This document shows positions 3,470 through 44,295 of a stretch of 44,295 bases of DNA, piece after piece (positions within the stretch are counted from its first letter, which is position 1; each line of letters opens with the position of its first letter). The notes beneath the pieces were generated by a model, which saw only the letters and a list, made by a program, of their open reading frames with translations, ran no database searches and had not been told where the DNA came from. The position numbers and the translations under genes were made by a program. The stretch comes from Escherichia phage GeorgBuechner, in sequence record MZ501070; one strand, 5' to 3'.

Positions 3470-4556
3470 TCAACATTTGGCGGATCGAATGATTCGCCGT
3501 CACATCTTCACCCAGCGCCTGAGCAATGACCAGGCGCGGAGGGTGCTGGCTATGTGGGAGAAGTTCCGGCCCACATTACTGGGTAAGCTGACCGAGTTAC
3601 TTGATGGCAAAAAGTCCATGAACAACAAGGCACTTACCACACTGTTAACGCAACTCGACAAGACCGTAAAAACGGAACTGCGCGCCGAGTTTAAAGTGCT
3701 GGCGGAGAGCCTGCAGGAGTTCGCCGACACCGAGGCTGATTATCTCGCTGACACACTAACGGCAGCGATCCAGCCCGCTGTCGCCGTACCCGCTGTTGAA
3801 GTAGTTGGCGTTGTTACCGGCGCGCAGATTGCAGCGACGGCAATGAAAAACCCGTTCCAGGGTAATACTATGATGCAATGGCCTGATTCCCTTTCCGAGT
3901 GGACCAGGACGCAGATCGGCAATCAGGTGCGCGCCGGATTCATCCAGGGCAAGCCAACGATGGAAATTATCGCGGACGTGAGGCGCGCGCTCGGCGGGCG
4001 TAGTGCGCAAGCAATCGCAAGCGTTGTTAAGTCCGCGGTCAACCACTATGCGGCGACCGCCCGCGAATTAATGGTAAAAGCTAATGACGATATTCTCGAA
4101 GGTCGCCAATGGTTGGCTACATTGGACACTCATACTTCCCCTATGTGCCAGCTACGCGATCGCCTGTTTTATCCTGTTGACGTCACTCCCGACACCAAAG
4201 GCAAGCGCGGCGGGAAAGTGGTGGCGGGATCACAATATGGCGCTGGTCCGGGCAAGCTGCATTATTGCTGCCGTTCGACGGAGACGTGGAAAGTCAAAGG
4301 TATGGAAGATTGGCCCAGTGGTAAGCGTCCGGCACTGAAGGCTGACGCGGGCCGATTGCTTAGTGAGCAGGTCGACGCGCAAACTGATTTCTTCTCATGG
4401 GTGCAGCGCCAGCCGCGCCATATTCTGGAGGAATTATATGGGGTGCAGCGCGCCGATCAGATTATGCGCGGCGTGAAAGTGCCGAAGATGTTCACCGATA
4501 CTGGCGAACTAATGACTATTGCGCAGCTTAAAAACCGGGGGCTATGGCGTGATTAA
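3453..4556 (+). CDS. Head morphogenesis protein (Mu F / SPP1 gp7-like)
   Basis: 367 aa; contains ATLDTHTSPMCQLRD resembling the conserved Mu-F domain core; overlaps portal stop. Confidence 0.8.
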   Translation: MAKTINQHLADRMIRRHIFTQRLSNDQARRVLAMWEKFRPTLLGKLTELLDGKKSMNNKALTTLLTQLDKTVKTELRAEFKVLAESLQEFADTEADYLADTLTAAIQPAVAVPAVEVVGVVTGAQIAATAMKNPFQGNTMMQWPDSLSEWTRTQIGNQVRAGFIQGKPTMEIIADVRRALGGRSAQAIASVVKSAVNHYAATARELMVKANDDILEGRQWLATLDTHTSPMCQLRDRLFYPVDVTPDTKGKRGGKVVAGSQYGAGPGKLHYCCRSTETWKVKGMEDWPSGKRPALKADAGRLLSEQVDAQTDFFSWVQRQPRHILEELYGVQRADQIMRGVKVPKMFTDTGELMTIAQLKNRGLWRD

Positions 4557-4857
4557 GTATGCAGCGATTGGGTTGGTAATAGGTCTGGCGGTTGGATTCT
4601 GGCAGGGTGACTCCTACCGCACTGGCGTTGAGGCGAGAGCGGCGCAAGAAGCGCAAGCGAAAGCCCAACGGCAGCAAACTAAGGTTGTCGAGGGGGCCGT
4701 GCAGGCAGAACAGGCCCGCGACGTGGAATACCGGACTATCACGAAAGAGGTTGTAAAATATGTTACGCGTCCTAACCGTCCTGATTGCCGTTTTGATGAT
4801 GAGCGCGTGCGGATCAAGCAACGTGCCATCGACGCCGCTAACCGAGTCGGTTTATAG
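4519..4857 (+). CDS. i-spanin (Rz-like) candidate; start could be ATG 4519 or GTG 4549
   Basis: N-terminal TM segment IKYAAIGLVIGLAVGFW followed by Q/A/E-rich predicted coiled coil and C-terminal Cys; contains an embedded +1-frame lipoprotein ORF. Confidence 0.55.
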   Translation: MRSLKTGGYGVIKYAAIGLVIGLAVGFWQGDSYRTGVEARAAQEAQAKAQRQQTKVVEGAVQAEQARDVEYRTITKEVVKYVTRPNRPDCRFDDERVRIKQRAIDAANRVGL

Positions 4858-10634: not shown

Positions 10635-10664
10635 TTTGGTCGCTTAAATAGCGAGTGTTAATAT

Positions 10665-10688
10665 GGGGCCAGCACGGCCCCTTTTTTA
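10665..10688 (+). terminator. Rho-independent terminator after major tail gene
   Basis: GGGGCC-agcac-GGCCCC followed by TTTTTT. Confidence 0.7.
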
Positions 10689-10703
10689 TTGGAGAATACT
10701 ACA

Positions 10704-11066
10704 ATGGCTAAAGCACCACTCTTCACACTTGACCCTAAGCCAACCTTTAAGCTGCCGATTGAGATCCCGCGCCCTGGCGAGAACGAACCGGGCAAGATGA
10801 CGTTTACCGTCCGCCACCGCCCGATCGACGAATTTTCGCAAACCATGCAGGAAACTGAACGAAAGCTATCGGAATATGACGACAATGACCCGGACGGCTT
10901 TAACGTTATGGTCGAGGCCATCATGCACGTCGCAGAAGGCTGGAATCTGCCGGACGAATTTAACGCGGAGAACGTCCGCCGCCTGGTGGTCAACTATCCA
11001 CGCGCGTTCGGTGTGTTCCACACGTCGTACTATCTCGAACTGATGGGGTTGCGTGAAAAAAACTAA
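10704..11066 (+). CDS. Tail assembly chaperone (gpG-like), zero-frame product
   Basis: 120 aa from ATG 10704 with SD GGAG; acidic; ends at TAA 11064-11066 just after an A AAA AAC slippery heptamer. Confidence 0.7.
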   Translation: MAKAPLFTLDPKPTFKLPIEIPRPGENEPGKMTFTVRHRPIDEFSQTMQETERKLSEYDDNDPDGFNVMVEAIMHVAEGWNLPDEFNAENVRRLVVNYPRAFGVFHTSYYLELMGLREKN

Positions 11067-11418: not shown

Positions 11419-11527
11419 ACCTGCAAAACTGCATACCTACTCACTCCCATTGCATAAACTCAAAACGGGACAAGCGGGACGTCCCGTTTTGTCCCGCCCT
11501 GTAAATGTGCATACCTATTCAGATTTC

Positions 11528-11702
11528 GTGCATAAACTAGGCGGGACAAAAAGCGGGACAGACAAGGGGCGGGACAAAGCGGGACAGCACCCCGTCCCCG
11601 CCAGTGCTGCCGCGGGTTTCAGCCGATCGGGACAAGCGGGACAAACCCCAGTCTTTCAGACTAGACGGGGGTCAACGGCCCCCCTCGTCTGAGACTGAAT
11701 AA
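11528..11702. repeat. Copy A of a duplicated ~175 bp non-coding element: GCGGGACA iterons plus terminal imperfect hairpin
   Basis: GCGGGACA boxes at irregular 10-16 bp spacing, then CCCAGTCTTTCAGACTAGACGGGGGTCAACGGCCCCCCTCGTCTGAGACTGAATAA; near-identical to 38938..39112. Confidence 0.8.
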
Positions 11703-11765
11703 GATTCGTTTTAAAATCGCTGATACAATGTCAATCGGCAACTGCATAAAAAAGGGGACTGCATA

Positions 11766-14408
11766 ATGGCAGATCAAGCAGCAGGCATCACGCTAAAGGT
11801 CGATGCCTCACAAGTCAGAACGGCTAATACAGCGCTGGACTCGTTCGCACAGAAGTCAGAGACTACGGAATGGAAAGCTAAAAAATTAAACGACACACTC
11901 GGCAACACGAAAAAGGTGACGGGTGATGCAGCAGGTGGGATGGGGAAGTTAGCGAACGAATCGCAACGCGCCGCCGATGGCATGACGAAACAGGAGCGAC
12001 TCGCCAACCGGTTGGGCATGTCGACCAAAAACCTGGGCTTTGCCTCGCGTAACGCCGCATTCCAGTTACAGGATATCGCGGTTACGCTTGAGATGGGGAT
12101 GCCGGTGCACCGCGTCATGCTTCAGCAGCTACCGCAGCTTACCGGCGCATTCGGCGGCCTGGGTAACACGCTGCGTTATGTTGTCGGGTCCGTCGGCCCG
12201 CTAGGACTCGGCATTGCTGCCTTGACGGCAACGCTAGGCGTAGGGGTGGCTATTACGTCCCGCGCAGAGAACCAGGTCGCAGCGCTTAACAAGACGCTTG
12301 CGCTGTCGGGTAACATTTCCGGCCTCACTGCAAACCAGATCCTGGTGCTATCCGAGAACGCCGAGCGCATGGGCGGGTCGTTCCGTAAGACGCGTGACAC
12401 AATCCAGGCACTGGCGGCGGCGGGTGTGAAAGCGGGTGCTGACTTCGGCGCGCTGGCGAAGGTTGTGAATGACTTCGCGAAGGCGTCTAATCAGCCGATC
12501 GCGGACGTGGTTGAATCCATCTCTAAATTGTCAAACGACCCAGTGGGCGGACTGCGTGCGCTGGCGGATAAGTATCATGTCGTAACCGAAGCGCAGATCC
12601 AGCAGGTGCAATCGCTTGTAAATATGGGGCGTGAAACGGACGCGGTTGCTCTGGCTAACAAAACCGCCGCGGCGTCGTTCGCCAGCATGACCAACGATGT
12701 AAAGGCCAACATGGGTACGCTTGAGCGGTCGATGAACGTCGTTACATCAGCAGCTAAATCTATGTGGGACGCCATCCTGGATGTGGGCCGCGCGCAGTCC
12801 TCGAATGAGTCCGAGATGAAAGCGCGTGAGTCCTTGCAGCGCATGACCACGGCTTACTATGCCGAGATGAGAGCGGTAAACGCTGCCGGTGGGGTGATGA
12901 CCGAAGCGCAGAAAGCGCGTATTAACATGCTTTACAGCGAACTGGTCGCACAGGAAAAGGTGGTGGCGTCGCTCACCCTGCGCAACCGTGCCGAGCGAGA
13001 CAACGCAAGTGCCGCGGACGAAGCAGCAAAGGCGAACGAGGAGGCCAACCGCACCGCCCGCGACCGCGCCGCGTTTGAGAAGGAGTACGCAACAAACGCG
13101 AAGAGGCGTGCCGACGAGATCGCCCGCCTCAATTTGCTGAATAAGCGCGGTGTTATTAACGAGAAAGAACTAGCCGAGGCGGTGAAGCAGGTCAACGAGC
13201 GCTACAAAGACCCCGCACCAAAAAAGGCGGCGGCAGTTCGAGTAGATGCCGGGCTGAAAATGCTGGAGGTCGCGCGAAGCGAACTGGCACAGCTTCGAGA
13301 ATCAGGCAAGCAGATCGAAGCCAACGCGTCGACGCAGACCCGAGCGCAACGCGCTCAATCAGCACTTAACAAGCTGATCGCAGATCATGAACAGTTAATC
13401 GCAGCAAGCAAAGAAAGAGCGCTAACGGCAGCGGAAAAGCAGCAAATTGCGGGTTTCGAGGCGGTTAAATCGGTACGCGAGCAGATCGTCGAAGAAGCCA
13501 AATTGCTGGACGAGAAAGAGAAGCAGATCAAGGCACATGCCCAGGTCGAGGCCTTCATCAAGAACCAGAACGCCGAGCTAAAAGCCACCGCGGCGGGCTA
13601 TGCGCTTTCTACTCGCGAAGCGGCTAACCTGCGCGAAGAATTGCAGCTAATTGACCGCCTTCAGCGTGTCGGTGCTAACGATACCGATATCGACAAGGCG
13701 GTGTCTAAGCTGCGTGAAGTTCAGGACGCACAGACCGGCGCTAACGCCTCGTTATGGGATGGATTCAGTCGCGGGCTTAAGGATAGCGTGGATGAAATGG
13801 GTAACGGATATACGCAGATGGCGTCTCTCACGAAATTCACATTCAGCGCTATGCAGGACACGATGAACGAGTTTTTCGAGACTGGCAAGCTGAACGCAAA
13901 GGATATGGTTAAGTCCATCCTGAGCGAATTAATCAAGCTGGCTACCTCGCAGGCGTTCAAGTCCATCGTTAGCGCTTTCGGTGGTGACGGCGGCAAAAAC
14001 GGATTGTTCGGCGCTATCTTCTCTGGCCTTACTAAGAATGCGGACGGCGGAGCGTACGCAGGAGGCAATCTCGCGGCCTATTCGGGGAAAGTGGTAAGCC
14101 AGCCTACCTTTTTCAGTTATGGCGTCCAGGCGTTCGCTAAGGGCGCAGGATTGATGGGTGAGGCCGGACCTGAAGCCATCATGCCACTGAAGCGCGGCCC
14201 GGACGGCAAACTTGGAGTTGCCGCTGCCGGAGGTGTCGGGGGAATGATTGTAACGACCAACGTTAACATGGGGACCGGTAAGACGGATACCAGTGTTAGC
14301 GGACCAGACCCGCGCACCGCTCAGGCGTTCGGAAAGCAAATCACCGAGTCGGTGAAGGCCGAGATCGTGAAGGCGACGAAACCGGGTGGTGTACTTTACA
14401 AACGATGA
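11766..14408 (+). CDS. Tail tape measure protein
   Basis: 880 aa, Ala/Gln/Glu-rich helical repeats, glycine-rich C-terminal region; SD AAGGGGA; followed by tail-tip genes. Confidence 0.9.
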   Translation: MADQAAGITLKVDASQVRTANTALDSFAQKSETTEWKAKKLNDTLGNTKKVTGDAAGGMGKLANESQRAADGMTKQERLANRLGMSTKNLGFASRNAAFQLQDIAVTLEMGMPVHRVMLQQLPQLTGAFGGLGNTLRYVVGSVGPLGLGIAALTATLGVGVAITSRAENQVAALNKTLALSGNISGLTANQILVLSENAERMGGSFRKTRDTIQALAAAGVKAGADFGALAKVVNDFAKASNQPIADVVESISKLSNDPVGGLRALADKYHVVTEAQIQQVQSLVNMGRETDAVALANKTAAASFASMTNDVKANMGTLERSMNVVTSAAKSMWDAILDVGRAQSSNESEMKARESLQRMTTAYYAEMRAVNAAGGVMTEAQKARINMLYSELVAQEKVVASLTLRNRAERDNASAADEAAKANEEANRTARDRAAFEKEYATNAKRRADEIARLNLLNKRGVINEKELAEAVKQVNERYKDPAPKKAAAVRVDAGLKMLEVARSELAQLRESGKQIEANASTQTRAQRAQSALNKLIADHEQLIAASKERALTAAEKQQIAGFEAVKSVREQIVEEAKLLDEKEKQIKAHAQVEAFIKNQNAELKATAAGYALSTREAANLREELQLIDRLQRVGANDTDIDKAVSKLREVQDAQTGANASLWDGFSRGLKDSVDEMGNGYTQMASLTKFTFSAMQDTMNEFFETGKLNAKDMVKSILSELIKLATSQAFKSIVSAFGGDGGKNGLFGAIFSGLTKNADGGAYAGGNLAAYSGKVVSQPTFFSYGVQAFAKGAGLMGEAGPEAIMPLKRGPDGKLGVAAAGGVGGMIVTTNVNMGTGKTDTSVSGPDPRTAQAFGKQITESVKAEIVKATKPGGVLYKR

Positions 14409-14444
14409 TAAAATGGCCCTCACATCCATCGTGGGGGCTTTTTT

Positions 14445-15044
14445 ATGTCACAAGGTACAATCACATTAACTAAGGGGAGTAAGACCGTTACTGGCGCGGG
14501 AACGGCGTTCCTTAGCGAGATCGGGAAGGTACTCGTATTCGCCCGCATCGACGGCAACGACTACACCGGCAAAATTGCGGCATTCAACTCGAACACGGTC
14601 ATTACACTGCAAGATAACTGGTCCGGCCCAACAAAAGCCGGTGCGGTGTATGAGCTAATCGAAGCACACGACCCGCGATCAAACGAATGGCCATACTACT
14701 GGCATATGCAATTGCAAGGCGGCGGAGACGTGCAGTTGGCTTTCCGGTCGGAGGAATTGCAATTTGGTAACGGTTACGGGCAGAACATCGCGGACGGCCC
14801 GAACGCCGAAACTAAACAATTCCCCGTGCAATTCGTCGGACTGACTACCGACAAGTGGTGTAACCCTAAGCTGGTTTACAACTTCCTTCGCGGGCACTTT
14901 GTAAAACCGTTCGTCGTCACCGCGCCGGATGGCGAGACAGGTTTATTCGTGGTCGAGCGTTCGAGCTTGTCGTACACTGACAACGGACACTACACGGCAA
15001 CGGTATCCGCCACCCTCAAGACTGCTATCGGATTTGTAAGATGA
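14445..15044 (+). CDS. Minor tail protein (gpM-like / distal tail protein)
   Basis: 199 aa ORF directly after tape measure in a lambda-like M-L-K-I-J order. Confidence 0.55.
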   Translation: MSQGTITLTKGSKTVTGAGTAFLSEIGKVLVFARIDGNDYTGKIAAFNSNTVITLQDNWSGPTKAGAVYELIEAHDPRSNEWPYYWHMQLQGGGDVQLAFRSEELQFGNGYGQNIADGPNAETKQFPVQFVGLTTDKWCNPKLVYNFLRGHFVKPFVVTAPDGETGLFVVERSSLSYTDNGHYTATVSATLKTAIGFVR

Positions 15045-36125: not shown

Positions 36126-36154
36126 TTGACACCGTGCAGTTTTGGGTGTAGTTT
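36126..36154 (+). promoter_or_regulatory. Candidate rightward promoter
   Basis: TTGACA - 17 nt - TAGTTT about 30 nt upstream of the regulator gene. Confidence 0.4.
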
Positions 36155-36185: not shown

Positions 36186-36515
36186 ATGAATGTAAACGAC
36201 GCAATCGAAATGTTAACGAAGACTGTTTGCAGTGAGACAAGCCGGTCATGGGCATATACCGATGCCGTGGGGGCGGTGTTATTTGAAATCGAACGACTGC
36301 GGCTTACCGAAAAAGAATTGCGCGCGAAGCTGGAATTACTCAACGGTACGGCAGCCAGCAAGCTGCAAAAGCACAATGAAGAAATGGAAGAATACAAAAA
36401 ACAGGTTATCCGTTTGCGCGAGGAGGGAAAGTCATGGGCGATGATCGCTGAGCTAACCGGAATTAATCAGAGCACCGTGCGCTCATGGGTACGCAATAAT
36501 AAAACTTCTAAGTAA
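36186..36515 (+). CDS. Putative transcriptional regulator with C-terminal helix-turn-helix
   Basis: 109 aa; C-terminal KSWAMIAELTGINQSTVRSWVRN is HTH-like; central coiled-coil-like segment; first gene of rightward operon. Confidence 0.5.
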   Translation: MNVNDAIEMLTKTVCSETSRSWAYTDAVGAVLFEIERLRLTEKELRAKLELLNGTAASKLQKHNEEMEEYKKQVIRLREEGKSWAMIAELTGINQSTVRSWVRNNKTSK

Positions 36516-36525
36516 GGCAACGGCA

Positions 36526-38790
36526 ATGAGCTTAATTAAATTTGCGGTAACACGACCCGCTAAAAAAGGCGAAAAAGCCAGGGCGGAAAACTTCCAGATG
36601 ACAACCGATGAGTTTTTCGAATTTATCAATGATGCGAAAGAAATCTCCTCGGTGCATATCAACAAGACGGAAGATAAAGCCGAGTATGCGCGCCGCAAGC
36701 GTAAGGCCGATGGGATTGTGGCTTATACTCGTGACGGCTTACGTCGCAAGACCAGTGCGGTGGACCGCTCGATCCTGTTCTTCGATATAGACCGTACCGA
36801 CACCCGCACCTTACGCCGCTGCCGTAAGGCGTTCATCGACGCGGGGCTGGAACACGTATTTCACACCACTACCGGCGACCGCCACCCGCTGAAAGGCGGC
36901 ACGCGTTGCGCCCGTTTCCTGGTGCTCACCGATAGGCCTGTACCTGCTGAAGACCTGGGCCGCGTCCAGTATGCACTATTACACCAACTGGGCCTGTCAG
37001 ATGTGGACTTCGATGATTGTACGAAAGACACAAACCGCCTTATGTACCTGCCTCACCAGCAATCGGTTGTCAAGTGTCACTACGGCAAACGTGCCCGCGT
37101 CCGTCGTCTGCTTCGCCTGGCGGATAAGCTGGGAGTGGAAAAAGAGGAAGTACGACGCGAACTGACCCAGGGCGATGACGGCGTGGCGGACGGTATTCTG
37201 GATTGGTGCTTCCAGGCAGGATTCGAACCGCTGTCGTCCGGTCGTGGTTATGAAGTACCGTGCCCGAACGAACACCTGCACAGTGGTGAAGGGTCCACCG
37301 CAATCATGGTTAAGGATGGCGAGATCCGTTTCAAGTGTATGCACACCGGCAACGAGTGTTGCTCGGAACTGAACAGACACCAGCACCTGGCGCTACGTCT
37401 TATCGGGATCCCGGACCACCTGAACGTCGAACCGCACAACATGTCACGTAAGCAAATCGCCGCCATCCTCCCTGGACTGGACGACGAGGAAGTGGAATCG
37501 TGCTATGCGCATATCGTTGATGCGGTCGGAGACGGCGACGAGTACGGCGTATGTACCGACGCTGACCTGGATAACGAACCGGTCGCACTGTTCAGTAAGC
37601 ACGACCCGATCATAGAAGGCCTGGTCAACTTCAAATCGACCTGGTATATGGCTGGCGAATCGAACATCGGTAAATCGTTCTACGTGCTGGGGCAAATGGG
37701 TGCGGTTGCCGCGGGGATTCCGTTCGGCGGTGCGAAGGTCGTCCAGTCCCATTGCTTCTATTTCGACGCGGAAGGTGGCGAAGCCTCCAACCAGCGTAAG
37801 GAAGCATTGCAGATCAAATACGAGCACGACCTCGACAAGCTGCACATTATCGATCTGCAATCACGCGGCTGGGATATCACCAGCAAATCCGGCTTGCGTG
37901 AAGTTATCAGCTTCATCAACCGCACCGCTAACGGCGAACCGGTTGGCCTGGTGGCGTTCGACTCACTCAACCAGACGGTTGCGCTGCGGTCCGCCGATGC
38001 CAAACCGTTCGACGAGAACAACGCCAGCGATATGGGCGAAGTGGTCAAGGCGCTGAAGGCCATCGCGGAAAATACAGGCGGCAGTGCGGGCGTTATCCAC
38101 CACCCGGCGAAGGGTGCAAACGGCAGCAGATCTCCCCGTGGGTCCGGCGCGCTGCATGGCGCTGTCGATTCTGCGTTCTTCCTGGAGCAACCGGACGACA
38201 ATCAGCCGGGCCAATTGAACCTGTATCACGAAAAGGCACGTAACGGCATCAAGCAAGCGCCACGCGGATTCGTCCTGCTCAAGTGCAAGGTTAAGGTGGA
38301 TCTCCGCAAGTCCGAAGCGTTCGAGTCACACCAGTCCACCAGCACCGGGCCTGACTTCGGCGATGTGGTTGCCGGTTGGGACGTCAAGCCAATTGCATCC
38401 ACACCACGCGACGAGACTCTGTACCTCGTACCGGTCGCCCTGGCACCGTTCGCCATCGAACAGGCGAAGGCCGCGGGCAAAGCAGCAGTTAAGGAAGAGA
38501 ACGCAGCAGGACCGCGCAACGAAAAAGAGAAAGTGCTTTATGCGGCGCTGGAAAAACTGATGGAAGATAACCCGGACCATACCGGATTCAGCAAATCGGC
38601 AATTGTCCGCCAGGCTGGGCTTGCGAAAGGTGGCACATCGACGAAGGCAATTGACGATATGGTCGAGCGCGGAGTGCTAGGTTTTTATACCGATCCGCAC
38701 ACCGGGGCCATCTATGGGTCGTCGAATATCGTCATTAAAACGAATATACCAATCACGCTTTCTGCGACCGATGACGATTTAAAAGATTAA
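36526..38790 (+). CDS. DNA primase/helicase-like replication protein with P-loop ATPase domain
   Basis: 754 aa; Walker A GESNIGKS and Walker B-like VAFDSL in the central region; large N-terminal domain of primase type by position and size. Confidence 0.65.
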   Translation: MSLIKFAVTRPAKKGEKARAENFQMTTDEFFEFINDAKEISSVHINKTEDKAEYARRKRKADGIVAYTRDGLRRKTSAVDRSILFFDIDRTDTRTLRRCRKAFIDAGLEHVFHTTTGDRHPLKGGTRCARFLVLTDRPVPAEDLGRVQYALLHQLGLSDVDFDDCTKDTNRLMYLPHQQSVVKCHYGKRARVRRLLRLADKLGVEKEEVRRELTQGDDGVADGILDWCFQAGFEPLSSGRGYEVPCPNEHLHSGEGSTAIMVKDGEIRFKCMHTGNECCSELNRHQHLALRLIGIPDHLNVEPHNMSRKQIAAILPGLDDEEVESCYAHIVDAVGDGDEYGVCTDADLDNEPVALFSKHDPIIEGLVNFKSTWYMAGESNIGKSFYVLGQMGAVAAGIPFGGAKVVQSHCFYFDAEGGEASNQRKEALQIKYEHDLDKLHIIDLQSRGWDITSKSGLREVISFINRTANGEPVGLVAFDSLNQTVALRSADAKPFDENNASDMGEVVKALKAIAENTGGSAGVIHHPAKGANGSRSPRGSGALHGAVDSAFFLEQPDDNQPGQLNLYHEKARNGIKQAPRGFVLLKCKVKVDLRKSEAFESHQSTSTGPDFGDVVAGWDVKPIASTPRDETLYLVPVALAPFAIEQAKAAGKAAVKEENAAGPRNEKEKVLYAALEKLMEDNPDHTGFSKSAIVRQAGLAKGGTSTKAIDDMVERGVLGFYTDPHTGAIYGSSNIVIKTNIPITLSATDDDLKD

Positions 38791-38865
38791 ATGCTGCGCG
38801 CATTGGTTGCCGATATGGGGATTCCCATATCGCTAAAAGATTAAATCTTGCGCGCATTGGTTGCC
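38779..38865. repeat. 32 bp direct repeat x2 flanking a palindrome, overlapping the primase stop
   Basis: TAAAAGATTAAATGCTGCGCGCATTGGTTGCC and TAAAAGATTAAATCTTGCGCGCATTGGTTGCC (2 mismatches) with GATATGGGgattCCCATATC between them; a third ATTGGTTGCC at 38891-38900. Confidence 0.8.
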
Positions 38866-38937
38866 ATTTTGAGTGTTTTTAGCTGGTCGTATTGGTTGCC
38901 GTGTAGTGTAAATATAATGCATAGTTATGCAGTTTTA

Positions 38938-39112
38938 GTGCATAAAGTAAGCGGGACAAAAAGCGGGACAAACAAGGGGCGGGACAAAGCGGGACAGCAC
39001 CCCCGTCCCGCCCCGGATGGCGCGGCTTCCAGAGGAGCGGGACAGGCGGGACAAACCCCAGTCTTTCAGACTAGACGGGGGTCAATGGCCCCCCTCGTCT
39101 GAGACTGAATAA
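38938..39112. repeat. Copy B of the duplicated ~175 bp GCGGGACA-iteron plus hairpin element
   Basis: Near-identical to 11528..11702 with a diverged central ~40 bp; ends in the same imperfect hairpin. Confidence 0.8.
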
Positions 39113-39171
39113 AATCCGGGGATTGCAAAATACACGGCAGCATGATGCGAAGCGCTGTCGTTGGTGAACTA

Positions 39172-39303
39172 GGCAACCAATGCGAGTTGCATTATGCTGA
39201 GTGAAAATGCAGTTTGCAGCCACAGCAGATAGCGATCAACTTTTTCATACGCATGATTAATATTGGTTGCATTCAGCCTGGCACCCTGCTAGATTGGTTG
39301 CAC
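39172..39303. promoter_or_regulatory. Cluster of three GCAACCAAT / ATTGGTTGCA motifs upstream of gene 39326
   Basis: GGCAACCAAT 39172-39181, ATTGGTTGCA 39262-39271, ATTGGTTGCAC 39294-39303 followed by CACCAACGAGAGGA and ATG. Confidence 0.5.
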
Positions 39304-39325
39304 ACCAACGAGAGGACCAAACAAA

Positions 39326-39805
39326 ATGAAATTTCCAGTAACCATCAAAGACGGTAAATCAACTATCACCTTCACCAGCAACGACCAGGGCACCTATGAA
39401 AGCGGGGCGACTTGCATGTCTACCCTGGACGATGTGATGATTCGTGTTAATTCCGGTAAAGCCTCGATTGTTGACGACAACACTAAGAAGGACCGAACAA
39501 TGAGAGCACTAATCTGGAATTACTCACTGGCCCTGGCAAAGCTGAACGAAGCGAAGGCGCTGAACGGCAACGTAGACCGTGCGCGCCAGTTTGCGACACT
39601 GGCACACCAGTCAATCATGTGTGCGCTAGACGATATGGACGCCAGCATGGATGGCCTGGGTCCGCTGCGTAAGGCAATCCATGAATACGCGCTGGCATTC
39701 TCCCGTGAGCGCCTGGCTTATCGCTTCGGTATTGGCGAGACGGCAGTGACAAACGTCGCCCGGATTAAAGCCCAGCGCGAACTATTCGCCCAGCTTGCGA
39801 AATAA
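39326..39805 (+). CDS. Hypothetical protein
   Basis: 159 aa; SD GAGAGGA; upstream leader nearly identical to that of minus-strand gene 5004..5768. Confidence 0.5.
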   Translation: MKFPVTIKDGKSTITFTSNDQGTYESGATCMSTLDDVMIRVNSGKASIVDDNTKKDRTMRALIWNYSLALAKLNEAKALNGNVDRARQFATLAHQSIMCALDDMDASMDGLGPLRKAIHEYALAFSRERLAYRFGIGETAVTNVARIKAQRELFAQLAK

Positions 39806-39814
39806 GGGGCCAAA

Positions 39815-40084
39815 ATGAGCCGTAGGCGCGCAAAACAGCTTTCGTGGAGCATCCCACTGCATTGCATACGAATATGGGCTAAGAATGCGGTTGAGGGCGA
39901 ATCGGTATTCTGGTGCTATCGCGACGATGTGAAGCCGTTGACGCAGACTCGCTACTTGCACCAGTTCGCAGCACAACACGATTTCAGGGTGCGGACTTCC
40001 TTGCAACCAATGGGAATACGTATTACATTACGCCGGAAGCCCGCCGTTGAGCGGGCAGGCAAACACTGGAGACTGAGCAAATGA
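39815..40084 (+). CDS. Hypothetical basic protein
   Basis: 89 aa, Arg/Lys-rich; SD AAGGGG. Confidence 0.45.
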   Translation: MSRRRAKQLSWSIPLHCIRIWAKNAVEGESVFWCYRDDVKPLTQTRYLHQFAAQHDFRVRTSLQPMGIRITLRRKPAVERAGKHWRLSK

Positions 40085-40233
40085 CACCAATGCAAAGGGC
40101 ACTAATGGCGGGATTCTCGCAGAAGTTTATTTCAGTAGACGCCTGCATAGCTGATTATGAGATGGACGGCATCGCTACGGTATGCGATGGCGACTATAAG
40201 ACTGTTGACGAGATTGAGGAGACTGAGCAATGA
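40081..40233 (+). CDS. Possible small acidic protein (50 aa)
   Basis: ATG 40081 within repeated junction GGAGACTGAGCAAATGA; ends in the same junction sequence at 40216-40233; not in the ORF track. Confidence 0.3.
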   Translation: MTPMQRALMAGFSQKFISVDACIADYEMDGIATVCDGDYKTVDEIEETEQ

Positions 40234-40784
40234 GATTACTATTCCGCCGCAAATCAGACGGGCGCATACTGAAGCCGATCCAGACCCTGGATTCCTACGT
40301 CCGCTTGCACCACGCGGCAAGCGATCGGGTATTCCGCGCATCGAAGGGCACATTGCCGCAGTTCTTCGAAGTCCTCACACACGATATCGAGCGGGGCGAT
40401 GTTCTGCGTGATATTCGCGACGGGCAATTGTGGGTCGTGGAGCACACCCACCGGCACGGCTTGCGGTTGAAGTCCGGCATCTTGCTAAAGGGTATGACGT
40501 ACTTCGGACTAATCAACTACGAGCGAGTGGGCCGCAAATACAGCCTTCGCAAACACCAGCAGCATGAGCGCGTGGAGTTCCGCAAGTCGCAGCCCGCGTA
40601 TGCCACCTACGACGCGAGCAAAGTGCAGGAGCCGATCCGCCAGGCCACGCGTGAGATAGTCAATCGCTTTGATGCCGTGACGAATGCACAGCGCCAGGCG
40701 CGGGAATACGGTGTGGGATTTATCCGTGTCGAACCAGACGGCAGCATGAAGGCCATCGACCCGCGCTCGGTGATTCTGAAATGA
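40230..40784 (+). CDS. Hypothetical protein
   Basis: 184 aa ORF, ATGA-coupled to the upstream small ORF. Confidence 0.5.
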   Translation: MRLLFRRKSDGRILKPIQTLDSYVRLHHAASDRVFRASKGTLPQFFEVLTHDIERGDVLRDIRDGQLWVVEHTHRHGLRLKSGILLKGMTYFGLINYERVGRKYSLRKHQQHERVEFRKSQPAYATYDASKVQEPIRQATREIVNRFDAVTNAQRQAREYGVGFIRVEPDGSMKAIDPRSVILK

Positions 40785-40927
40785 GTGCGTCTATCCGTGA
40801 TATGCTCATGCACAACCGCTTTGAGATAGGCGGTCGGGTGTTTCGCAATTACTTCGTGGCGCGTGCATGGGCGCGCCATATTGGCAAACCGGAAGGGGCA
40901 ATTCGATGCTATACGTCTTCGCGGTAG
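40781..40927 (+). CDS. Possible small protein (48 aa)
   Basis: ATGA overlap with preceding gene; not in the ORF track. Confidence 0.25.
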   Translation: MSASIRDMLMHNRFEIGGRVFRNYFVARAWARHIGKPEGAIRCYTSSR

Positions 40928-41007
40928 TATGTGGCGGTAGTCTGGCGGCCCTGGTGCTGTTGGCGTCGGTTATTAGTCTGGTTAAATACCTATGGGGCAG
41001 ATTATGA
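40906..41007 (+). CDS. Possible single-pass membrane peptide (33 aa)
   Basis: MLYVFAVVCGGSLAALVLLASVISLVKYLWGRL; stop overlaps next start as ATGA. Confidence 0.3.
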   Translation: MLYVFAVVCGGSLAALVLLASVISLVKYLWGRL

Positions 41008-41291
41008 TTCATGATGTGATTTATTGGTTTGGTTTGATCTGCGGGCTATGCCTGCTTACCGCGGTGCTGTTGGGCATCCTGATGTTCGTCGTATGGCCTG
41101 CAGTGGAAGCCGCCAGTATTACCCGCATGACGTTCGAGGTATACAAGCGCCGCGGGATCACGGAGCACCCGACCAGGTTGCGCATGTGGTGGCTGTGGTA
41201 TCGGGATATGATAGGCGGGCGAACATTCGAGGCCGTCCGGTCGAGTGGATGGGAGTGGAAAGGCGTCGGCAAGTGGTCCATTTTCGATTAA
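41004..41291 (+). CDS. Small membrane protein
   Basis: 95 aa from ATG 41004 (track start 40992); N-terminal TM IYWFGLICGLCLLTAVLLGILMFVVW; Trp-rich C-terminal part. Confidence 0.45.
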   Translation: MIHDVIYWFGLICGLCLLTAVLLGILMFVVWPAVEAASITRMTFEVYKRRGITEHPTRLRMWWLWYRDMIGGRTFEAVRSSGWEWKGVGKWSIFD

Positions 41292-41310
41292 TTATGCAAG
41301 CGTGATATAG

Positions 41311-41343
41311 TCCCAGTGAGATAAAACTTACTGGGACTTTTTT
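41311..41343 (+). terminator. Stem-loop plus T-run immediately upstream of the first lysis-cassette gene
   Basis: TCCCAGT-12 nt loop-ACTGGGA followed by CTTTTTT and then ATG 41344; preceded by TGaTATAGT extended -10-like element at 41303-41311. Confidence 0.5.
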
Positions 41344-41634
41344 ATGGATAAGCTAAACGAGTGGTTATTCGCCCTCGCGTGTCTGGCTGGCGGCTTCGTA
41401 GGCGCACGCATTCATGGCGAGGCTACGAAAGGGCCGCTAAACTTCGTTTTATATATCGTAGTTGGCTTCCTGTGTGCCATATTTGGTGCGCCAGCTATCG
41501 CCGAGTGGGCAGGCTTATCTGGCGAGCGCACTGTCGCCGGTTTGGGCTTCGTAACTGCAATCTTCTGGATGCCAATAGCCGCCCGGATCAGGGAGACTAT
41601 TGAGTCGTTCCGACTTCCGGGGGGCGCAAAATGA
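41344..41634 (+). CDS. Holin-like membrane protein (three predicted TM segments)
   Basis: 96 aa; hydrophobic stretches WLFALACLAGGFVGA, FVLYIVVGFLCAIFGAPAIA, GLGFVTAIFWMPIAA; positioned two genes upstream of endolysin. Confidence 0.45.
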   Translation: MDKLNEWLFALACLAGGFVGARIHGEATKGPLNFVLYIVVGFLCAIFGAPAIAEWAGLSGERTVAGLGFVTAIFWMPIAARIRETIESFRLPGGAK

Positions 41635-41876
41635 TTATCTCCGTCCTGTTGTTTGTTATCATAGGGGCTTCGTCCCTGTTTAACGTGTATGCGCCGTCCG
41701 TCCAGGATGGCATTTTAGGCCGGGTGTTATATCTGCTAACGGCGATGATCTGCGTTATCGGATTGTTGCAAACAGGAGACGTATCTGACACCACCTGGAC
41801 CGCGTTAATCTGGCTGTTTGCATTGCGCACGCTGCGTAATGCTGTTTTGAATGGGGTAAAACATGCGATTCAGTGA
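41631..41876 (+). CDS. Holin/antiholin-like membrane protein
   Basis: 81 aa; TM stretches MIISVLLFVIIGASSLF, VLYLLTAMICVIGLL, WTALIWLFAL; overlaps endolysin start. Confidence 0.45.
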   Translation: MIISVLLFVIIGASSLFNVYAPSVQDGILGRVLYLLTAMICVIGLLQTGDVSDTTWTALIWLFALRTLRNAVLNGVKHAIQ

Positions 41877-42354
41877 CAACGGTCTACGATTTACGGCAGC
41901 ATGGGAGACGTTTAGCCCGGTGCCGTATTTCGCGACTAAGAAAGAGCAGGCCCGCGGCCTGTACACCTGGGGTTATGGTCACACTGGCACTAACCCGCCT
42001 CGAAGCATTACCCGCGCGGAAGCGCTGGAGCTACTTAAGCGCGATGTGGCGTATGCTGAGGACTGGGTGAACAAATACGCGCATAAGAGCATTAACCAGG
42101 CGCAATTCGACGCGCTGGTGGACCTGGTTATCAATGCAGGTCAAGGTCCGATCGTACCGGACCATATTGCCAATGACTTCGACGACGCGGTGCGCTTGGG
42201 CGACTGGGCAAAGGTCCGTGCTACGCTGCCACAGTTCCGCAAGCAAGGCGGGGAAGTGCTTAAGGGTCTGGTCCGTCGAGCAATCGGCAGACAGGCTTTA
42301 TTCGATGGAAAGCAGTGGGACGTTGCCGAGAAGATCGGACGTAACGCAGCATAA
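41863..42354 (+). CDS. Endolysin (GH24 lysozyme/muramidase type)
   Basis: 163 aa; N-terminal Glu region (AAWETFSP) and TWGYGHTG segment typical of T4/lambda-type lysozymes; no N-terminal signal-anchor. Confidence 0.8.
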   Translation: MRFSDNGLRFTAAWETFSPVPYFATKKEQARGLYTWGYGHTGTNPPRSITRAEALELLKRDVAYAEDWVNKYAHKSINQAQFDALVDLVINAGQGPIVPDHIANDFDDAVRLGDWAKVRATLPQFRKQGGEVLKGLVRRAIGRQALFDGKQWDVAEKIGRNAA

Positions 42355-42370
42355 TACGGGGTAACACAGT

Positions 42371-42784
42371 ATGTTAAGAAGTATTCTTGATCATAACGCC
42401 GACGCGATTGCTGCGCTGGCTAAAACAGAAGACCCAGGCGCTCGCGCTATCATCGCGGACACTATCAGCCACGCGGGGGTCTTCGACGCGAAGCTGCCTA
42501 GCCCGCCGGAAAGTAAGCCGGTGACAAGTGCCACCGTAACAATCACACCGGAATCCGCCGCAGTTGGTGCGAAGGCCGCCGCTTCTGTTGCCGTCTTGCC
42601 ATCCGACGCGACTAACAAGGCAGGGAAGTGGGTGCCGTCGAATCCGGCCTGTGCGGCAATCGATCAGACTACCGGCGAAATCACAGCCCAAACGGCAGGT
42701 AGCGCCCACATCTTTTGGGTGGCCTCCGATGGTAGCGGGGTGATAGCGTCCGCCATCTTCACCGTGACGGAAGCAGGAGAATAA
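42371..42784 (+). CDS. Hypothetical protein with possible Ig-like (Big_2-type) domain
   Basis: 137 aa; Ala/Thr/Ser-rich beta-like C-terminal half ATVTITPESAAVGAKAAASVAVLP...; followed by terminator. Confidence 0.4.
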   Translation: MLRSILDHNADAIAALAKTEDPGARAIIADTISHAGVFDAKLPSPPESKPVTSATVTITPESAAVGAKAAASVAVLPSDATNKAGKWVPSNPACAAIDQTTGEITAQTAGSAHIFWVASDGSGVIASAIFTVTEAGE

Positions 42785-42788
42785 AACC

Positions 42789-42816
42789 ACAAGCCCGGTT
42801 AATTCCGGGCTTTTTA
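42789..42816 (+). terminator. Rho-independent terminator after the lysis-region operon
   Basis: AAGCCCGG-ttaatt-CCGGGCTT followed by TTTATT. Confidence 0.7.
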
Positions 42817-42826
42817 TTGCTTGACT

Positions 42827-42860
42827 CGCAACCAATTATCAGACTATACTGCGACCAATC
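42827..42860. promoter_or_regulatory. Tandem pair CGCAACCAAT / GCGACCAAT upstream of a strong SD
   Basis: CGCAACCAATtatcagactatactGCGACCAATcaACGAGAGGAG followed by ATG 42881. Confidence 0.5.
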
Positions 42861-42880: not shown

Positions 42881-42961
42881 ATGGCACGTAATGATATTTG
42901 GGTATTGGCTATCTGGTCCGCCGCAGTATTTATCGGTATGGTTATTTGCGAATTGCTATAA
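42881..42961 (+). CDS. Possible 26 aa hydrophobic peptide
   Basis: MARNDIWVLAIWSAAVFIGMVICELL; strong SD GAGAGGAG 9 nt upstream; not in the ORF track. Confidence 0.3.
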   Translation: MARNDIWVLAIWSAAVFIGMVICELL

Positions 42962-43022
42962 CCCGCCACAATAGGGACCGTGGTATATTGTCCTCGGTCC
43001 CATAATCTGGAAGTGAATTAAT

Positions 43023-44176: not shown

Positions 44177-44212
44177 AAGCCACCCAGCCTGCCGATTTGG
44201 TGGGCTTTTTTG
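44177..44212 (+). terminator. Probable terminator after the last gene of the window
   Basis: Imperfect stem AAGCCACCC ... GGTGGGCTT followed by TTTTTT. Confidence 0.5.
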
Positions 44213-44295
44213 TGCCTGTTATAATCCACCTTAGATGGCAGGGCCGTCTCCTATGTTGCCGATGGTCGGCGCATATGCACAAAAGGGCTTATATC

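What the first reader, a model, noticed from the sequence alone, without database searches (positions are those of the whole stretch)
41292..41346. Terminator abutting the first lysis-cassette gene, with an extended -10-like element overlapping its 5' stem
A hairpin plus T6 ends exactly at ATG 41344, leaving no room for a conventional SD. Immediately upstream, TGaTATAGT (41303-41311) resembles an extended -10 promoter whose predicted start would fall inside the hairpin. Transcripts initiated there could escape termination while upstream read-through is blocked. The arrangement recalls lambda pR'/tR' late control and suggests timed lysis gene expression.
Basis: inference. Interest (0 to 1): 0.5.

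Follow-up and report, generated by a model that had tools for sequence, protein, structure and literature searches.

The report
Terminator with nested lysis-gene promoter
Just before the first lysis gene of this E. coli phage (a Dhillonvirus) lies a strong transcription stop signal that very probably has a small host-type promoter built into its front edge, so that messages from upstream genes are stopped and silenced while the lysis genes get a fresh message of their own; no experiment has yet tested this.

Summary
A 12-bp hairpin (41309-41338, -19.3 kcal/mol, the most stable terminator-like hairpin found in the genome) is followed by a T-run and then directly by the holin ATG at 41344. TGaTATAGT sits at 41303-41311. 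The window is a complete Dhillonvirus genome, and the hairpin is already annotated as a predicted terminator in three relatives (PTXU06, WF5505, WFI).

What I add:
- The 52-nt spacer is the most conserved stretch of the 3.3 kb compared. The 13 bases before the stem are invariant in 30 distinct relatives, while 63-68% of neighbouring third-codon positions vary.
- The only change inside the motif makes it a perfect TGaTATAAT and breaks a stem pair.
- Sense-strand TGnTAnnnT is enriched in intergenic regions (9 found, 2.5 expected). All nine survive in a divergent clade, changing only at N positions.
- Homologous holins in Guernseyvirinae carry CGTGnTAT on the 5' edge of a differently sequenced hairpin that hides their ribosome-binding site.

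Best reading (confidence about 0.55): an intrinsic terminator for the upstream unit, plus a nested extended -10 promoter whose transcripts start inside the 5' arm. Such transcripts would escape termination and have a free ribosome site. The lambda pR'/tR' analogy is not supported. Nothing here is experimentally shown.

The parts
40992..41291 (+). Last gene of the upstream rightward unit: a 99-aa membrane-type protein, PHROG 2531, function unknown. Its stop codon TAA is at 41289-41291, 17 nt before the stem.
41303..41311 (+). Extended -10-like element TGaTATAGT (TG at 41303-41304, hexamer TATAGT at 41306-41311). The last three bases are also the first three of the hairpin's 5' arm. There is no usable -35 (best match 3 of 6).
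   Evidence: It is invariant in 32 distinct relatives except G41310>A, which gives TATAAT in one lineage.
41317..41319 (+). Predicted transcription start (T41317 then G41318/A41319, 7-8 nt after the hexamer), inside the 5' arm. This is an inference, not a mapped 5' end.
   Evidence: Sequence plus general knowledge of sigma-70 start-site spacing.
41309..41338 (+). Terminator hairpin: 12-bp stem and 6-nt loop.
   Evidence: Annotated as an ARNold terminator in MK373789 and in the WF5505 and WFI records.
41338..41343 (+). T-run (U-tract) of the terminator, directly abutting the start codon.
   Evidence: Invariant in the aligned columns; two relatives carry a one-base insertion at its 5' edge, a 7th T in L010 and an A between the stem and the T-run in SO-1/L004.
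41333..41336 (+). GGGA, the only SD-like bases for the holin, buried in the 3' arm 7 nt before the ATG.
41301..41305 (+). CGTGA, which can pair with TTATG (41342-41346) across a 3x3 internal loop. In read-through RNA this extends the helix over the start codon.
   Evidence: minimum-free-energy structures. The pairing is weak, with two G.U pairs.
41344..41634 (+). Holin gene 1 (96 aa, PHROG 2359 holin).
41631..41876 (+). Holin gene 2 (81 aa, PHROG 2508). Its start overlaps the holin 1 stop (ATGA).
41863..42354 (+). Endolysin (Phage_lysozyme, PF00959).
42371..42784 (+). Ig-like (Big_2) domain protein, the last gene of the unit.
42791..42812 (+). Terminator closing the lysis unit. A conserved TTGACT-17/18-(T/C)ATACT promoter follows at 42821-42850.

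Best explanation
The 52-nt spacer is a compact three-function junction between the rightward early/middle unit (primase and small genes, 36186-41291) and the lysis cassette.

(1) The hairpin plus U-tract is an intrinsic terminator. It ends transcripts arriving from upstream and gives them a stable 3' end.

(2) In any RNA that reads through, the same hairpin buries the holin's weak GGGA and, through a short helix extension, its AUG. Read-through RNA should therefore translate holin poorly.

(3) The front edge of the hairpin carries an extended -10 promoter (TGaTATAGT, no -35) for host sigma-70 RNA polymerase. Initiation about 7 nt downstream falls in the last bases of the 5' arm, so these transcripts lack that arm. 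They cannot terminate at the U-tract and have an open ribosome site on a 26-nt leader. They would express holin, holin 2, endolysin and the Ig-like gene up to the terminator at 42791.

Shown by computation: the structure, its conservation and the motif statistics. Inferred: termination, promoter activity, the start site and the translational effect.
For: Terminator:
- 12-bp stem, 6-nt loop, U-tract.
- -19.3 kcal/mol, the most stable of the eight + strand terminator-like hairpins compared; z = -6.25 against shuffles.
- Independently annotated by ARNold in relatives.
- The stem is kept in the divergent clade by an extra C in the 5' arm together with A>G in the 3' arm.

The function extends beyond the stem:
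- The spacer is 98% identical in the main clade against 93% for the holin gene, and 85% against 64-68% in the divergent clade.
- Among 30 distinct main-clade sequences, 41296-41308 is invariant and the 5' flank has 2 of 17 variable sites, against 63-68% of third-codon positions.

Promoter:
- TG, the correct 1-nt gap, and a 5/6 hexamer with A at -11 and T at -7.
- The single substitution inside the motif (G41310>A, lineage L036-L038) creates the consensus TGATATAAT. It destroys the G41310-C41337 pair with no compensating change and lowers folding energy from -24.1 to -18.7 kcal/mol.
- Sense-strand TGNTANNNT is enriched in + strand intergenic regions: 9 observed against 2.45 in shuffles (P = 0.0015), with 2 antisense.
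- All nine are kept in HK578 and in the divergent LM40P1, with changes only at N positions. They lie so as to give 24-64 nt leaders.
- The element before terS is the consensus TGTTATAAT. In LM40P1 it is TGATATAAT at a different distance from a different terminator.

Cross-genus:
- Holin homologues of 46-52% identity in Kagunavirus and Jerseyvirus have CGTG(G/C)TATCCT overlapping the 5' arm of a 9-bp hairpin (ATCCTCCAG/CTGGAGGAT) whose 3' arm is the SD.
- In 24 distinct variants, the one base beside the stem that alternates between G and C across many variants is the 'n' of TGn.

Translation: opening the ribosome site costs 19.8 kcal/mol in read-through RNA and 3.2 in RNA starting at 41318. The divergent clade and TU03 give similar contrasts.
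Against: - There are no experimental 5' or 3' ends for any Dhillonvirus.
- There is no -35 (best 3 of 6) and no AT-rich UP-like region. The discriminator is C-rich (CCCAGT). The strength of the promoter is therefore unknown.
- Three of the nine motif bases are stem bases, so part of the conservation is confounded with the hairpin.
- CGTGA can also be explained as the 5' half of a helix extension over the AUG.
- The count of TGNTATART in the genome (3) is not by itself above chance.
- The contrast with E. coli terminators is small: 3 of 12 against 0 of 24, Fisher p about 0.03 by my calculation.
- A constitutive promoter in front of a holin needs some other explanation for lysis timing.
- For K1G the computed gain in ribosome-site accessibility is small, 14.9 against 11.1 kcal/mol.
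Confidence: 0.55

Rival explanations
1. Terminator/attenuator only. The hairpin ends or attenuates the upstream unit, and the lysis genes are expressed from the fraction of transcripts that read through. The hairpin also damps holin translation. The resemblance to an extended -10 is incidental, and the flank is conserved because it forms the helix extension over the AUG or a small upstream hairpin (41291-41306).
For: - The terminator features are strong.
- CGUGA pairs with UUAUG in every minimum-free-energy fold.
- A small hairpin AUUAUG-CAAG-CGUGAU is predicted in long RNA. The divergent-clade changes (41299, 41300) fall in its loop, and U41295>C in L025 turns a U.G pair into C-G.
- Terminators that attenuate downstream genes are common within siphovirus late operons (general knowledge).
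- No -35 is present.
Against: - Read-through RNA would have its ribosome site locked at 19.8 kcal/mol, which makes it a poor template for the first gene of the cassette.
- The G41310>A change weakens the stem while perfecting the -10.
- The 'n' of TGn alternates between G and C in Guernseyvirinae, which a pairing constraint would not allow.
- The orientation-specific enrichment of TGNTANNNT in intergenic regions, and its motif-preserving conservation, are not explained.
Confidence: 0.27
2. An RNA regulatory hairpin operated by a trans-acting factor. The main role of the structure would be post-transcriptional: a phage or host protein, an RNase III-type cleavage or a small RNA opens or cuts the hairpin late in infection to release holin translation. 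Termination would be secondary.
For: - RBS-sequestering hairpins sit at the same position before homologous holins in Guernseyvirinae without a U-tract, so sequestration rather than termination is the shared feature.
- The opening energy is large.
- Lambda S has an upstream structure (sdi) that controls holin starts (general knowledge).
Against: - No candidate factor was found, and there is no Rfam family. The best match, NsiR1, scores 28 bits against a gathering score of 39.
- This reading does not explain the conserved TGnTAT on the 5' edge in both groups.
- A perfect 12-bp stem is shorter than typical RNase III substrates (general knowledge).
Confidence: 0.1
3. A lambda-like late switch. 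A promoter upstream of the hairpin would make a short terminated RNA, and a phage antiterminator (Q-like) would later let polymerase read through into the lysis genes.
For: - The position, a terminator directly before the lysis cassette, matches lambdoid phages (general knowledge).
- The upstream ORFs have unknown function, so a novel antiterminator cannot be excluded.
Against: - The only promoter-like element would start inside the stem, so its RNA would not contain the terminator.
- Only 17 nt separate the upstream stop codon from the stem, leaving no space for a promoter plus a qut/pause region.
- There is no Pfam or PHROG match to Q, N or other antiterminators.
- The phage is a virulent Dhillonvirus and not lambdoid.
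Confidence: 0.05

Closest known systems
Intrinsic (Rho-independent) terminators, including the ARNold-predicted terminator annotated at the same site in phages PTXU06, WF5505 and WFI
   Same: A G+C-containing perfect stem, a short loop and a U-tract just after a stop codon, on the coding strand. It is the same sequence as the annotated feature in MK373789.
   Different: The U-tract runs straight into the next gene's start codon. The 3' arm carries that gene's only SD-like bases, and a promoter-like element overlaps the 5' arm. The GenBank annotations record none of these.
Extended -10 (TGn) sigma-70 promoters, for example E. coli galP1; also the extended -10 middle/late promoters of Thermus phage P23-45, and the resistance of such promoters to T4 AsiA (all from my own knowledge, not checked here)
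   Same: TG one base upstream of a 5/6 to 6/6 -10 hexamer, no recognisable -35, and a purine start 7-8 nt downstream. The phage carries a whole set of them in front of its gene blocks.
   Different: Activity is untested. Here the element is nested in a terminator stem. No sigma-region-4-binding protein has been identified in this phage.
Lambda pR'-qut-tR' / Q late control
   Same: A terminator stands between earlier genes and the lysis cassette.
   Different: The predicted start is inside the terminator rather than upstream of it. No Q homologue, no qut space and no predicted short terminated RNA are present. The proposed logic is 'restart' rather than 'antiterminate'.
Lambda S sdi stem-loop with dual-start holin/antiholin control (from my own knowledge)
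   Same: An RNA stem-loop overlaps the translation-initiation region of a holin gene.
   Different: There is no dual start: the protein begins MDKLNEW and the next Met is residue 76. The structure is also far more stable and doubles as a terminator.
Ordinary terminator-then-promoter junctions, as at 42791/42821 and 44186/44217 in this genome and before the MED16 holin
   Same: They insulate a downstream unit from upstream transcription and restart it.
   Different: The order is interleaved here: -10, then hairpin, then U-tract. Upstream polymerases therefore cross the promoter before terminating, and the hairpin also acts on translation.

Membership tests
Intrinsic terminator | Stable stem-loop with G-C pairs and a 3-8 nt loop | tested here: met
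   12 bp (6 G-C), loop of 6, -19.3 kcal/mol; z = -6.25.
Intrinsic terminator | U-rich tract immediately 3' of the stem | tested here: met
   T41338-T41343, then ATG. Invariant in the aligned columns of the relatives, apart from one-base insertions at its 5' edge in L010 and L004.
Intrinsic terminator | Stem maintained by compensating changes in relatives | tested here: met
   Divergent clade: an extra C in the 5' arm with A>G in the 3' arm. Guernseyvirinae: a different arm sequence, still fully paired, at the homologous place. These are few independent events. RNAalifold on a MAFFT alignment could not register the arms.
Intrinsic terminator | Transcripts actually end at the U-tract | not testable with these tools
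   Needs Term-seq or in vitro transcription.
Extended -10 sigma-70 promoter | TG at -15/-14, one base upstream of a -10 hexamer with A at -11 and T at -7 | tested here: met
   TGaTATAGT at 41303-41311; TGaTATAAT in lineage L036-L038.
Extended -10 sigma-70 promoter | Conserved beyond the neutral expectation, independently of overlapping elements | tested here: met
   TGATAT (41303-41308) lies outside the stem and is invariant in 32 distinct sequences, while 63-68% of third-codon positions vary. CGTGnTAT is kept across genera with n free. The last three bases are confounded with the stem.
Extended -10 sigma-70 promoter | Part of a set of such elements placed upstream of genes in the sense orientation | tested here: met
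   9 sense against 2 antisense, with 2.45 expected (P = 0.0015). All are conserved as a motif in HK578 and LM40P1.
Extended -10 sigma-70 promoter | Drives -35-independent initiation by RNA polymerase holoenzyme | not testable with these tools
   Best -35 match is 3 of 6. Activity needs an experiment.
Lambda Q / pR'-tR' antitermination module | Q-family antiterminator gene next to the module | tested here: not met
   The upstream ORFs (159, 184, 48, 33 and 99 aa) have no Pfam hit and only unknown-function PHROGs. A novel antiterminator cannot be formally excluded.
Lambda Q / pR'-tR' antitermination module | Promoter placed so that its own transcript contains the terminator and ends there without Q | tested here: not met
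   The predicted start at 41317-41319 lies in the 5' arm, and RNA from there does not form the hairpin. Only 17 nt separate the stop codon from the stem.
Lambda S-type dual-start holin with sdi structure | Two in-frame start codons a few codons apart, giving antiholin and holin | tested here: not met
   The protein starts MDKLNEW and the next Met is residue 76.
Lambda S-type dual-start holin with sdi structure | RNA structure overlapping the holin ribosome site | tested here: met
   GGGA and the AUG are paired in read-through RNA, with an opening cost of 19.8 kcal/mol.

The most novel reading that the evidence does not exclude
The junction could be a reusable 'stop, silence and restart' module that also works as a timer. 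Upstream polymerases must cross the nested promoter before they terminate. Heavy early transcription would therefore occlude it, and the hairpin would silence whatever reads through. Holin synthesis would begin only when early, -35-dependent transcription fades. That could happen passively, or because an early phage protein shifts host polymerase from -35/-10 promoters (the TTGACA-type promoters at about 36.1 kb) to the nine -35-less extended -10 promoters, as T4 AsiA and Thermus phage P23-45 gp39 do.

The same nested design (-10 | hairpin | U-run | start) occurs at two further terminators in this genome, 10656-10687 and 14406-14444. It also occurs, without the U-run, before the homologous holins of Guernseyvirinae.
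Probability: 0.15. Interest if true: 0.65.

Novelty: new variant of a known kind. Interest (0 to 1): 0.4.

Why it matters
Virulent siphoviruses such as the Dhillonviruses, which are widely isolated for therapy and are part of the BASEL collection, have no polymerase or known antiterminator of their own, and no transcript map. How they keep holin off early is unknown.

If the nested promoter is real, it identifies the lysis promoter. It also points to a genus-wide class of -35-independent promoters. And it describes a 50-nt element that terminates, blocks translation and restarts transcription at one spot, which would be useful for annotation, for engineering lysis timing and as a compact synthetic insulator.

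If it is not real, the site is an ordinary, already annotated terminator with an unusually tight link to the holin start.

Tried and rejected
- Rfam: no family reaches its gathering score in the whole window. With relaxed thresholds the spacer hits NsiR1, a cyanobacterial small RNA, at 28.1 bits against a gathering score of 39. I take that as a generic hairpin-plus-U-tract resemblance.
- Literature: six searches and six papers were read for a Dhillonvirus, HK578 or Guernseyvirinae transcript map, or for described promoter-in-terminator cases. None was found.
- Word-indexed protein search with the holin returned only close relatives. tblastn against phage genomes was needed to reach other genera.
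- The metagenome scan gave more close relatives and no new clade.
- RNAalifold on a MAFFT alignment of Dhillonvirus and Guernseyvirinae spacers predicted nothing, because the arms were not put in register. I compared the pairs by hand from the single-sequence folds instead.
- Pfam and PHROG scans of the upstream ORFs looked for Q, N or other regulators and found only unknown-function families.
- Coding explanations for the conservation were rejected. No ORF on either strand covers 41306-41343. An alternative-frame ORF ends at TGA 41303-41305, and the EE09 annotation uses that frame.
- A minus-strand terminator role was rejected, because there is no T-run after the stem on that strand.
- The shared GGGAC between the hairpin and the GCGGGACA iterons is too short to mean anything.

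Full report
**What the window is.** The 44,295-bp window is a complete genome of a Dhillonvirus, an HK578-like virulent siphovirus of E. coli. A 2.7-kb piece around the finding matches 152 phage records at 80-99% identity, nearly all Escherichia or Shigella Dhillonvirus.

The gene order is:
- terminase, head and tail genes on the + strand (1 to about 23.7 kb);
- replication genes on the - strand (about 23.8-36 kb);
- a rightward block on the + strand: HTH protein, primase-helicase, small genes, lysis cassette, a 380-aa phosphoesterase-like gene.

The genes after the finding are a holin (PHROG 2359), a second holin (PHROG 2508), an endolysin (PF00959) and an Ig-like protein. 'First lysis-cassette gene' is therefore correct.

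**The observation.**
- The hairpin is AGTCCCAGTGAG / ATAAAA / CTTACTGGGACT (41309-41338), followed by TTTTT and then ATG at 41344. The first T of the 'T6' is the last stem pair.
- It is the longest-stemmed terminator-like hit in the region. At -19.3 kcal/mol it is the most stable of the eight + strand terminator-like hairpins compared.
- The 76-nt context folds 6.25 standard deviations better than shuffles.
- TGATATAGT is at 41303-41311. TGNTATART occurs three times in the genome, which is not more than composition predicts (my estimate is about 1.7).
- The holin has no alternative start, because the next Met is residue 76.
- Its only SD-like bases are GGGA at 41333-41336, inside the 3' arm. 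Their pairing energy of -3.9 kcal/mol is near the bottom of the genome's range.

**Already known part.** The same hairpin is annotated as an ARNold-predicted terminator in phage PTXU06 and in WF5505 and WFI. No record I saw annotates a promoter there. HK578 has annotated promoters only at about 35.4-35.5 kb. No Dhillonvirus transcript map turned up in the literature library.

**Conservation.** I collected 38 related loci from GenBank, IMG/VR and metagenomes, of which 32 are distinct.
- The 52-nt spacer is the best-conserved stretch of the 3.3 kb compared. It is 98% identical in the main clade (holin gene 93%, endolysin 91%) and 85% in the divergent clade of L015 and LM40P1 (coding 64-68%).
- Among 30 distinct main-clade sequences, 63-68% of third-codon positions in the three lysis genes vary. 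Only 2 of the 17 bases between the stop codon and the stem vary, none of 41296-41308, and 1 of 24 stem bases.
- Variation sits in the loop (41321, 41323), just after the stop codon (41292) and in T-run length.
- A terminator alone does not explain the invariant 5' flank.
- In phage Pubbukkers the whole upstream 99-aa gene is deleted between two GGCGTCGG repeats, yet the spacer is intact.

**Evidence bearing on the promoter reading.**

(a) One lineage (L036-L038, holin 88% identical) has G41310>A. This turns TATAGT into the consensus TATAAT and breaks the G41310-C41337 pair with no compensating change. The fold drops from -24.1 to -18.7 kcal/mol and the stem is left one base away from the U-tract. 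This is a single evolutionary event, but it goes in the direction a promoter predicts and a terminator does not.

(b) The divergent clade keeps TGATATAGT exactly while changing the loop, adding a C to the 5' arm and changing A>G in the 3' arm.

(c) Genome-wide, sense-strand TGNTANNNT is enriched in the intergenic regions of the + strand blocks. Nine are found against 2.45 +/- 1.6 in shuffles (P = 0.0015), whereas the antisense count is 2.
- The nine sites are 5853, 10656, 11721, 14406, 21847, 39287, 41303, 42981 and 44217.
- They would give 24-64 nt leaders to the next start codon.
- All nine are retained as a motif in HK578 and in LM40P1, with substitutions only at the N positions.
- The one before the small-terminase gene is the perfect TGTTATAAT, 10 nt after a terminator. 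In LM40P1 it is TGATATAAT, 17 nt after a terminator of different sequence.

I conclude that the genus very probably uses extended -10 promoters, and that 41303 is one of the set.

(d) tblastn finds holin homologues of 46-52% identity in Guernseyvirinae.
- In K1G, Ro145c2YLVW, RP180, Sciku and the Jerseyvirus TU03 the spacer reads ...CCGTG(G/C)TATCCTCCAG-loop-CTGGAGGATTCATC-TTG.
- This is again a TGnTAT element on the 5' edge of a hairpin. Its arms have a different sequence (ATCCTCCAG/CTGGAGGAT) and its 3' arm is the holin's SD.
- There is no U-run, so what the two groups share is RBS sequestration plus the -10-like edge, not termination.
- In 24 distinct Guernseyvirinae variants the element is fixed apart from the 'n' of TGn, which alternates between G and C across many variants, and a few single-variant changes. 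That pattern fits a promoter and does not fit a base-pairing role for that position.
- In the more distant MED16 a terminator is directly followed by TGCTATCGT, 35 nt before the holin ATG. Serratia phage Scapp has an annotated terminator further upstream and an ordinary SD.

**Consequences for the RNA.** A start 7-8 nt after the hexamer (T41317, then G41318/A41319, a pyrimidine-purine step) lies in the last bases of the 5' arm.
- RNA from 41318 is essentially unstructured around the start. Opening positions -15 to +12 costs 3.2 kcal/mol.
- RNA coming from upstream costs 19.8 kcal/mol, with GGGA fully paired.
- In all folds CGUGA (41301-41305) also pairs with UUAUG (41342-41346) across a 3x3 internal loop.
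- The divergent clade gives 21.5 against 8.1 and TU03 gives 19.6 against 7.3. K1G gives only 14.9 against 11.1.

Read-through RNA should therefore be a poor holin template, and internally initiated RNA a good one.

**Architecture around it.** The lysis unit is bracketed by this terminator and one at 42791-42812. The second is followed by a conserved TTGACT-17/18-(T/C)ATACT promoter. No strong + strand terminator lies between the early rightward promoter (TTGACA at 36126) and 41309. The hairpin is thus the natural end of that unit.

Two other terminators (10665-10681 and 14415-14439) also have TGnTAnnnT ending exactly at the base of the stem. The gene at 14445 likewise starts right after the U-run, with its SD (GGGGG) in the 3' arm. 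By the same criteria, 3 of 12 terminators in the phage show this arrangement against 0 of 24 in 150 kb of E. coli K-12. My Fisher p is about 0.03, and the test is small and post hoc.

**Best explanation and rivals.**
- I put about 0.55 on the combined model: an intrinsic terminator for the upstream unit, RBS occlusion in read-through RNA, and a nested extended -10 promoter that launches the lysis mRNA from inside the hairpin.
- The main rival, at about 0.27, is a terminator/attenuator with read-through expression. There the flank would be conserved for RNA pairing, either the AUG-covering extension or a small hairpin at 41291-41306 whose loop carries the divergent-clade changes.
- A factor-operated RNA switch gets about 0.1.
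- A lambda-type Q system gets about 0.05. The predicted start is inside the stem, only 17 nt separate the stop codon from the stem, and no Q-like protein is recognisable.

**Comparison with known systems.**
- The parts are of known kinds: an intrinsic terminator and an extended -10 promoter.
- The element is not a member of the lambda pR'/tR' kind, since two defining features are not met.
- It is not a dual-start/sdi holin control, since there is no second start.
- What is unusual is the interleaving: the -10 overlaps the 5' arm, the 3' arm carries the SD, and the U-tract abuts the start codon. It recurs within the genome and in related form in another subfamily.
- I found no description of this arrangement in the searched literature. 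That search is far from exhaustive.

**Verdict.** The lambda analogy and the 'timed' expression are not supported. Novelty: a new variant of known kinds. Interest is moderate (0.4).

Noticed in passing
window 5853, 10656, 11721, 14406, 21847, 39287, 41303, 42981, 44217 (+ strand): Nine sense-strand TGNTANNNT elements lie in intergenic regions, 24-64 nt (by predicted start) before the next gene. The count is 9 against 2.45 expected, with 2 antisense. All are kept in HK578 and the divergent LM40P1 with changes only at N positions. This is a candidate genus-wide class of extended -10 promoters, in contrast with the TTGACA-type promoters at about 36.0-36.2 kb.
   Followed up: partly
window 14406-14447 and 10656-10706: Two more terminator hairpins have a TGnTAnnnT ending exactly at the stem base. 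At 14445 the minor-tail gene's ATG abuts the U-run and its SD (GGGGG) is in the 3' arm, with an RBS opening cost of 20.7 against 6.0 kcal/mol. This is the same design as at the holin.
   Followed up: partly
window 44186-44225; L039 (LM40P1) about 44940-44985: A terminator is followed by a consensus extended -10 (TGTTATAAT) upstream of the small-terminase gene. In LM40P1 both the terminator sequence and the spacing differ, but a consensus TGATATAAT is still present.
   Followed up: yes
window 42974-43001: TG(G/A)TATATT is conserved in the loop of a hairpin (GGGACCG...CGGTCCC) about 30 nt before the 380-aa HTH/phosphoesterase-like gene. The surrounding spacer is otherwise poorly conserved.
   Followed up: partly
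window 11508-11708 and 38918-39118: Two intergenic regions, before the tape-measure gene and after the primase gene, share a 201-bp direct repeat (87.6% identical) packed with GCGGGACA iterons. They correspond to 'region A/B' annotated in Sodalis phage SO-1 as a possible origin. In LM40P1 each copy matches the other location better.
   Followed up: partly
L018 (phage Pubbukkers) about 1440-1500; window 40963-41272: The 99-aa gene and the 3' part of the 46-aa gene upstream of the hairpin are deleted in Pubbukkers between two GGCGTCGG repeats, leaving the spacer element intact.
   Followed up: no
window 42882-42961: A 26-aa hydrophobic ORF (MARNDIWVLAIWSAAVFIGMVICELL) with a good SD lies between the lysis-unit terminator/promoter and the next gene. 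It is present in HK578 and absent in LM40P1.
   Followed up: no
window 4519-4857: The spanin-like gene (annotated as an Rz-like spanin in HK578) lies among the head genes, about 36 kb from the holin-endolysin cassette. The lysis functions are therefore split between two transcription units.
   Followed up: no
L044-L049, L052-L084 (Guernseyvirinae), about 45 nt upstream of the holin start: A second small inverted repeat (AGGATAATTCCT), containing an SD-like AGGA, lies just upstream of the TGnTAT element and is conserved across the subfamily. Its function is unknown.
   Followed up: no
window 41293-41345: A sub-threshold Rfam match to the cyanobacterial small RNA NsiR1 (28.1 bits, gathering score 39, E = 9e-4 for the 301 nt searched). 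This is probably generic hairpin-plus-terminator similarity.
   Followed up: yes
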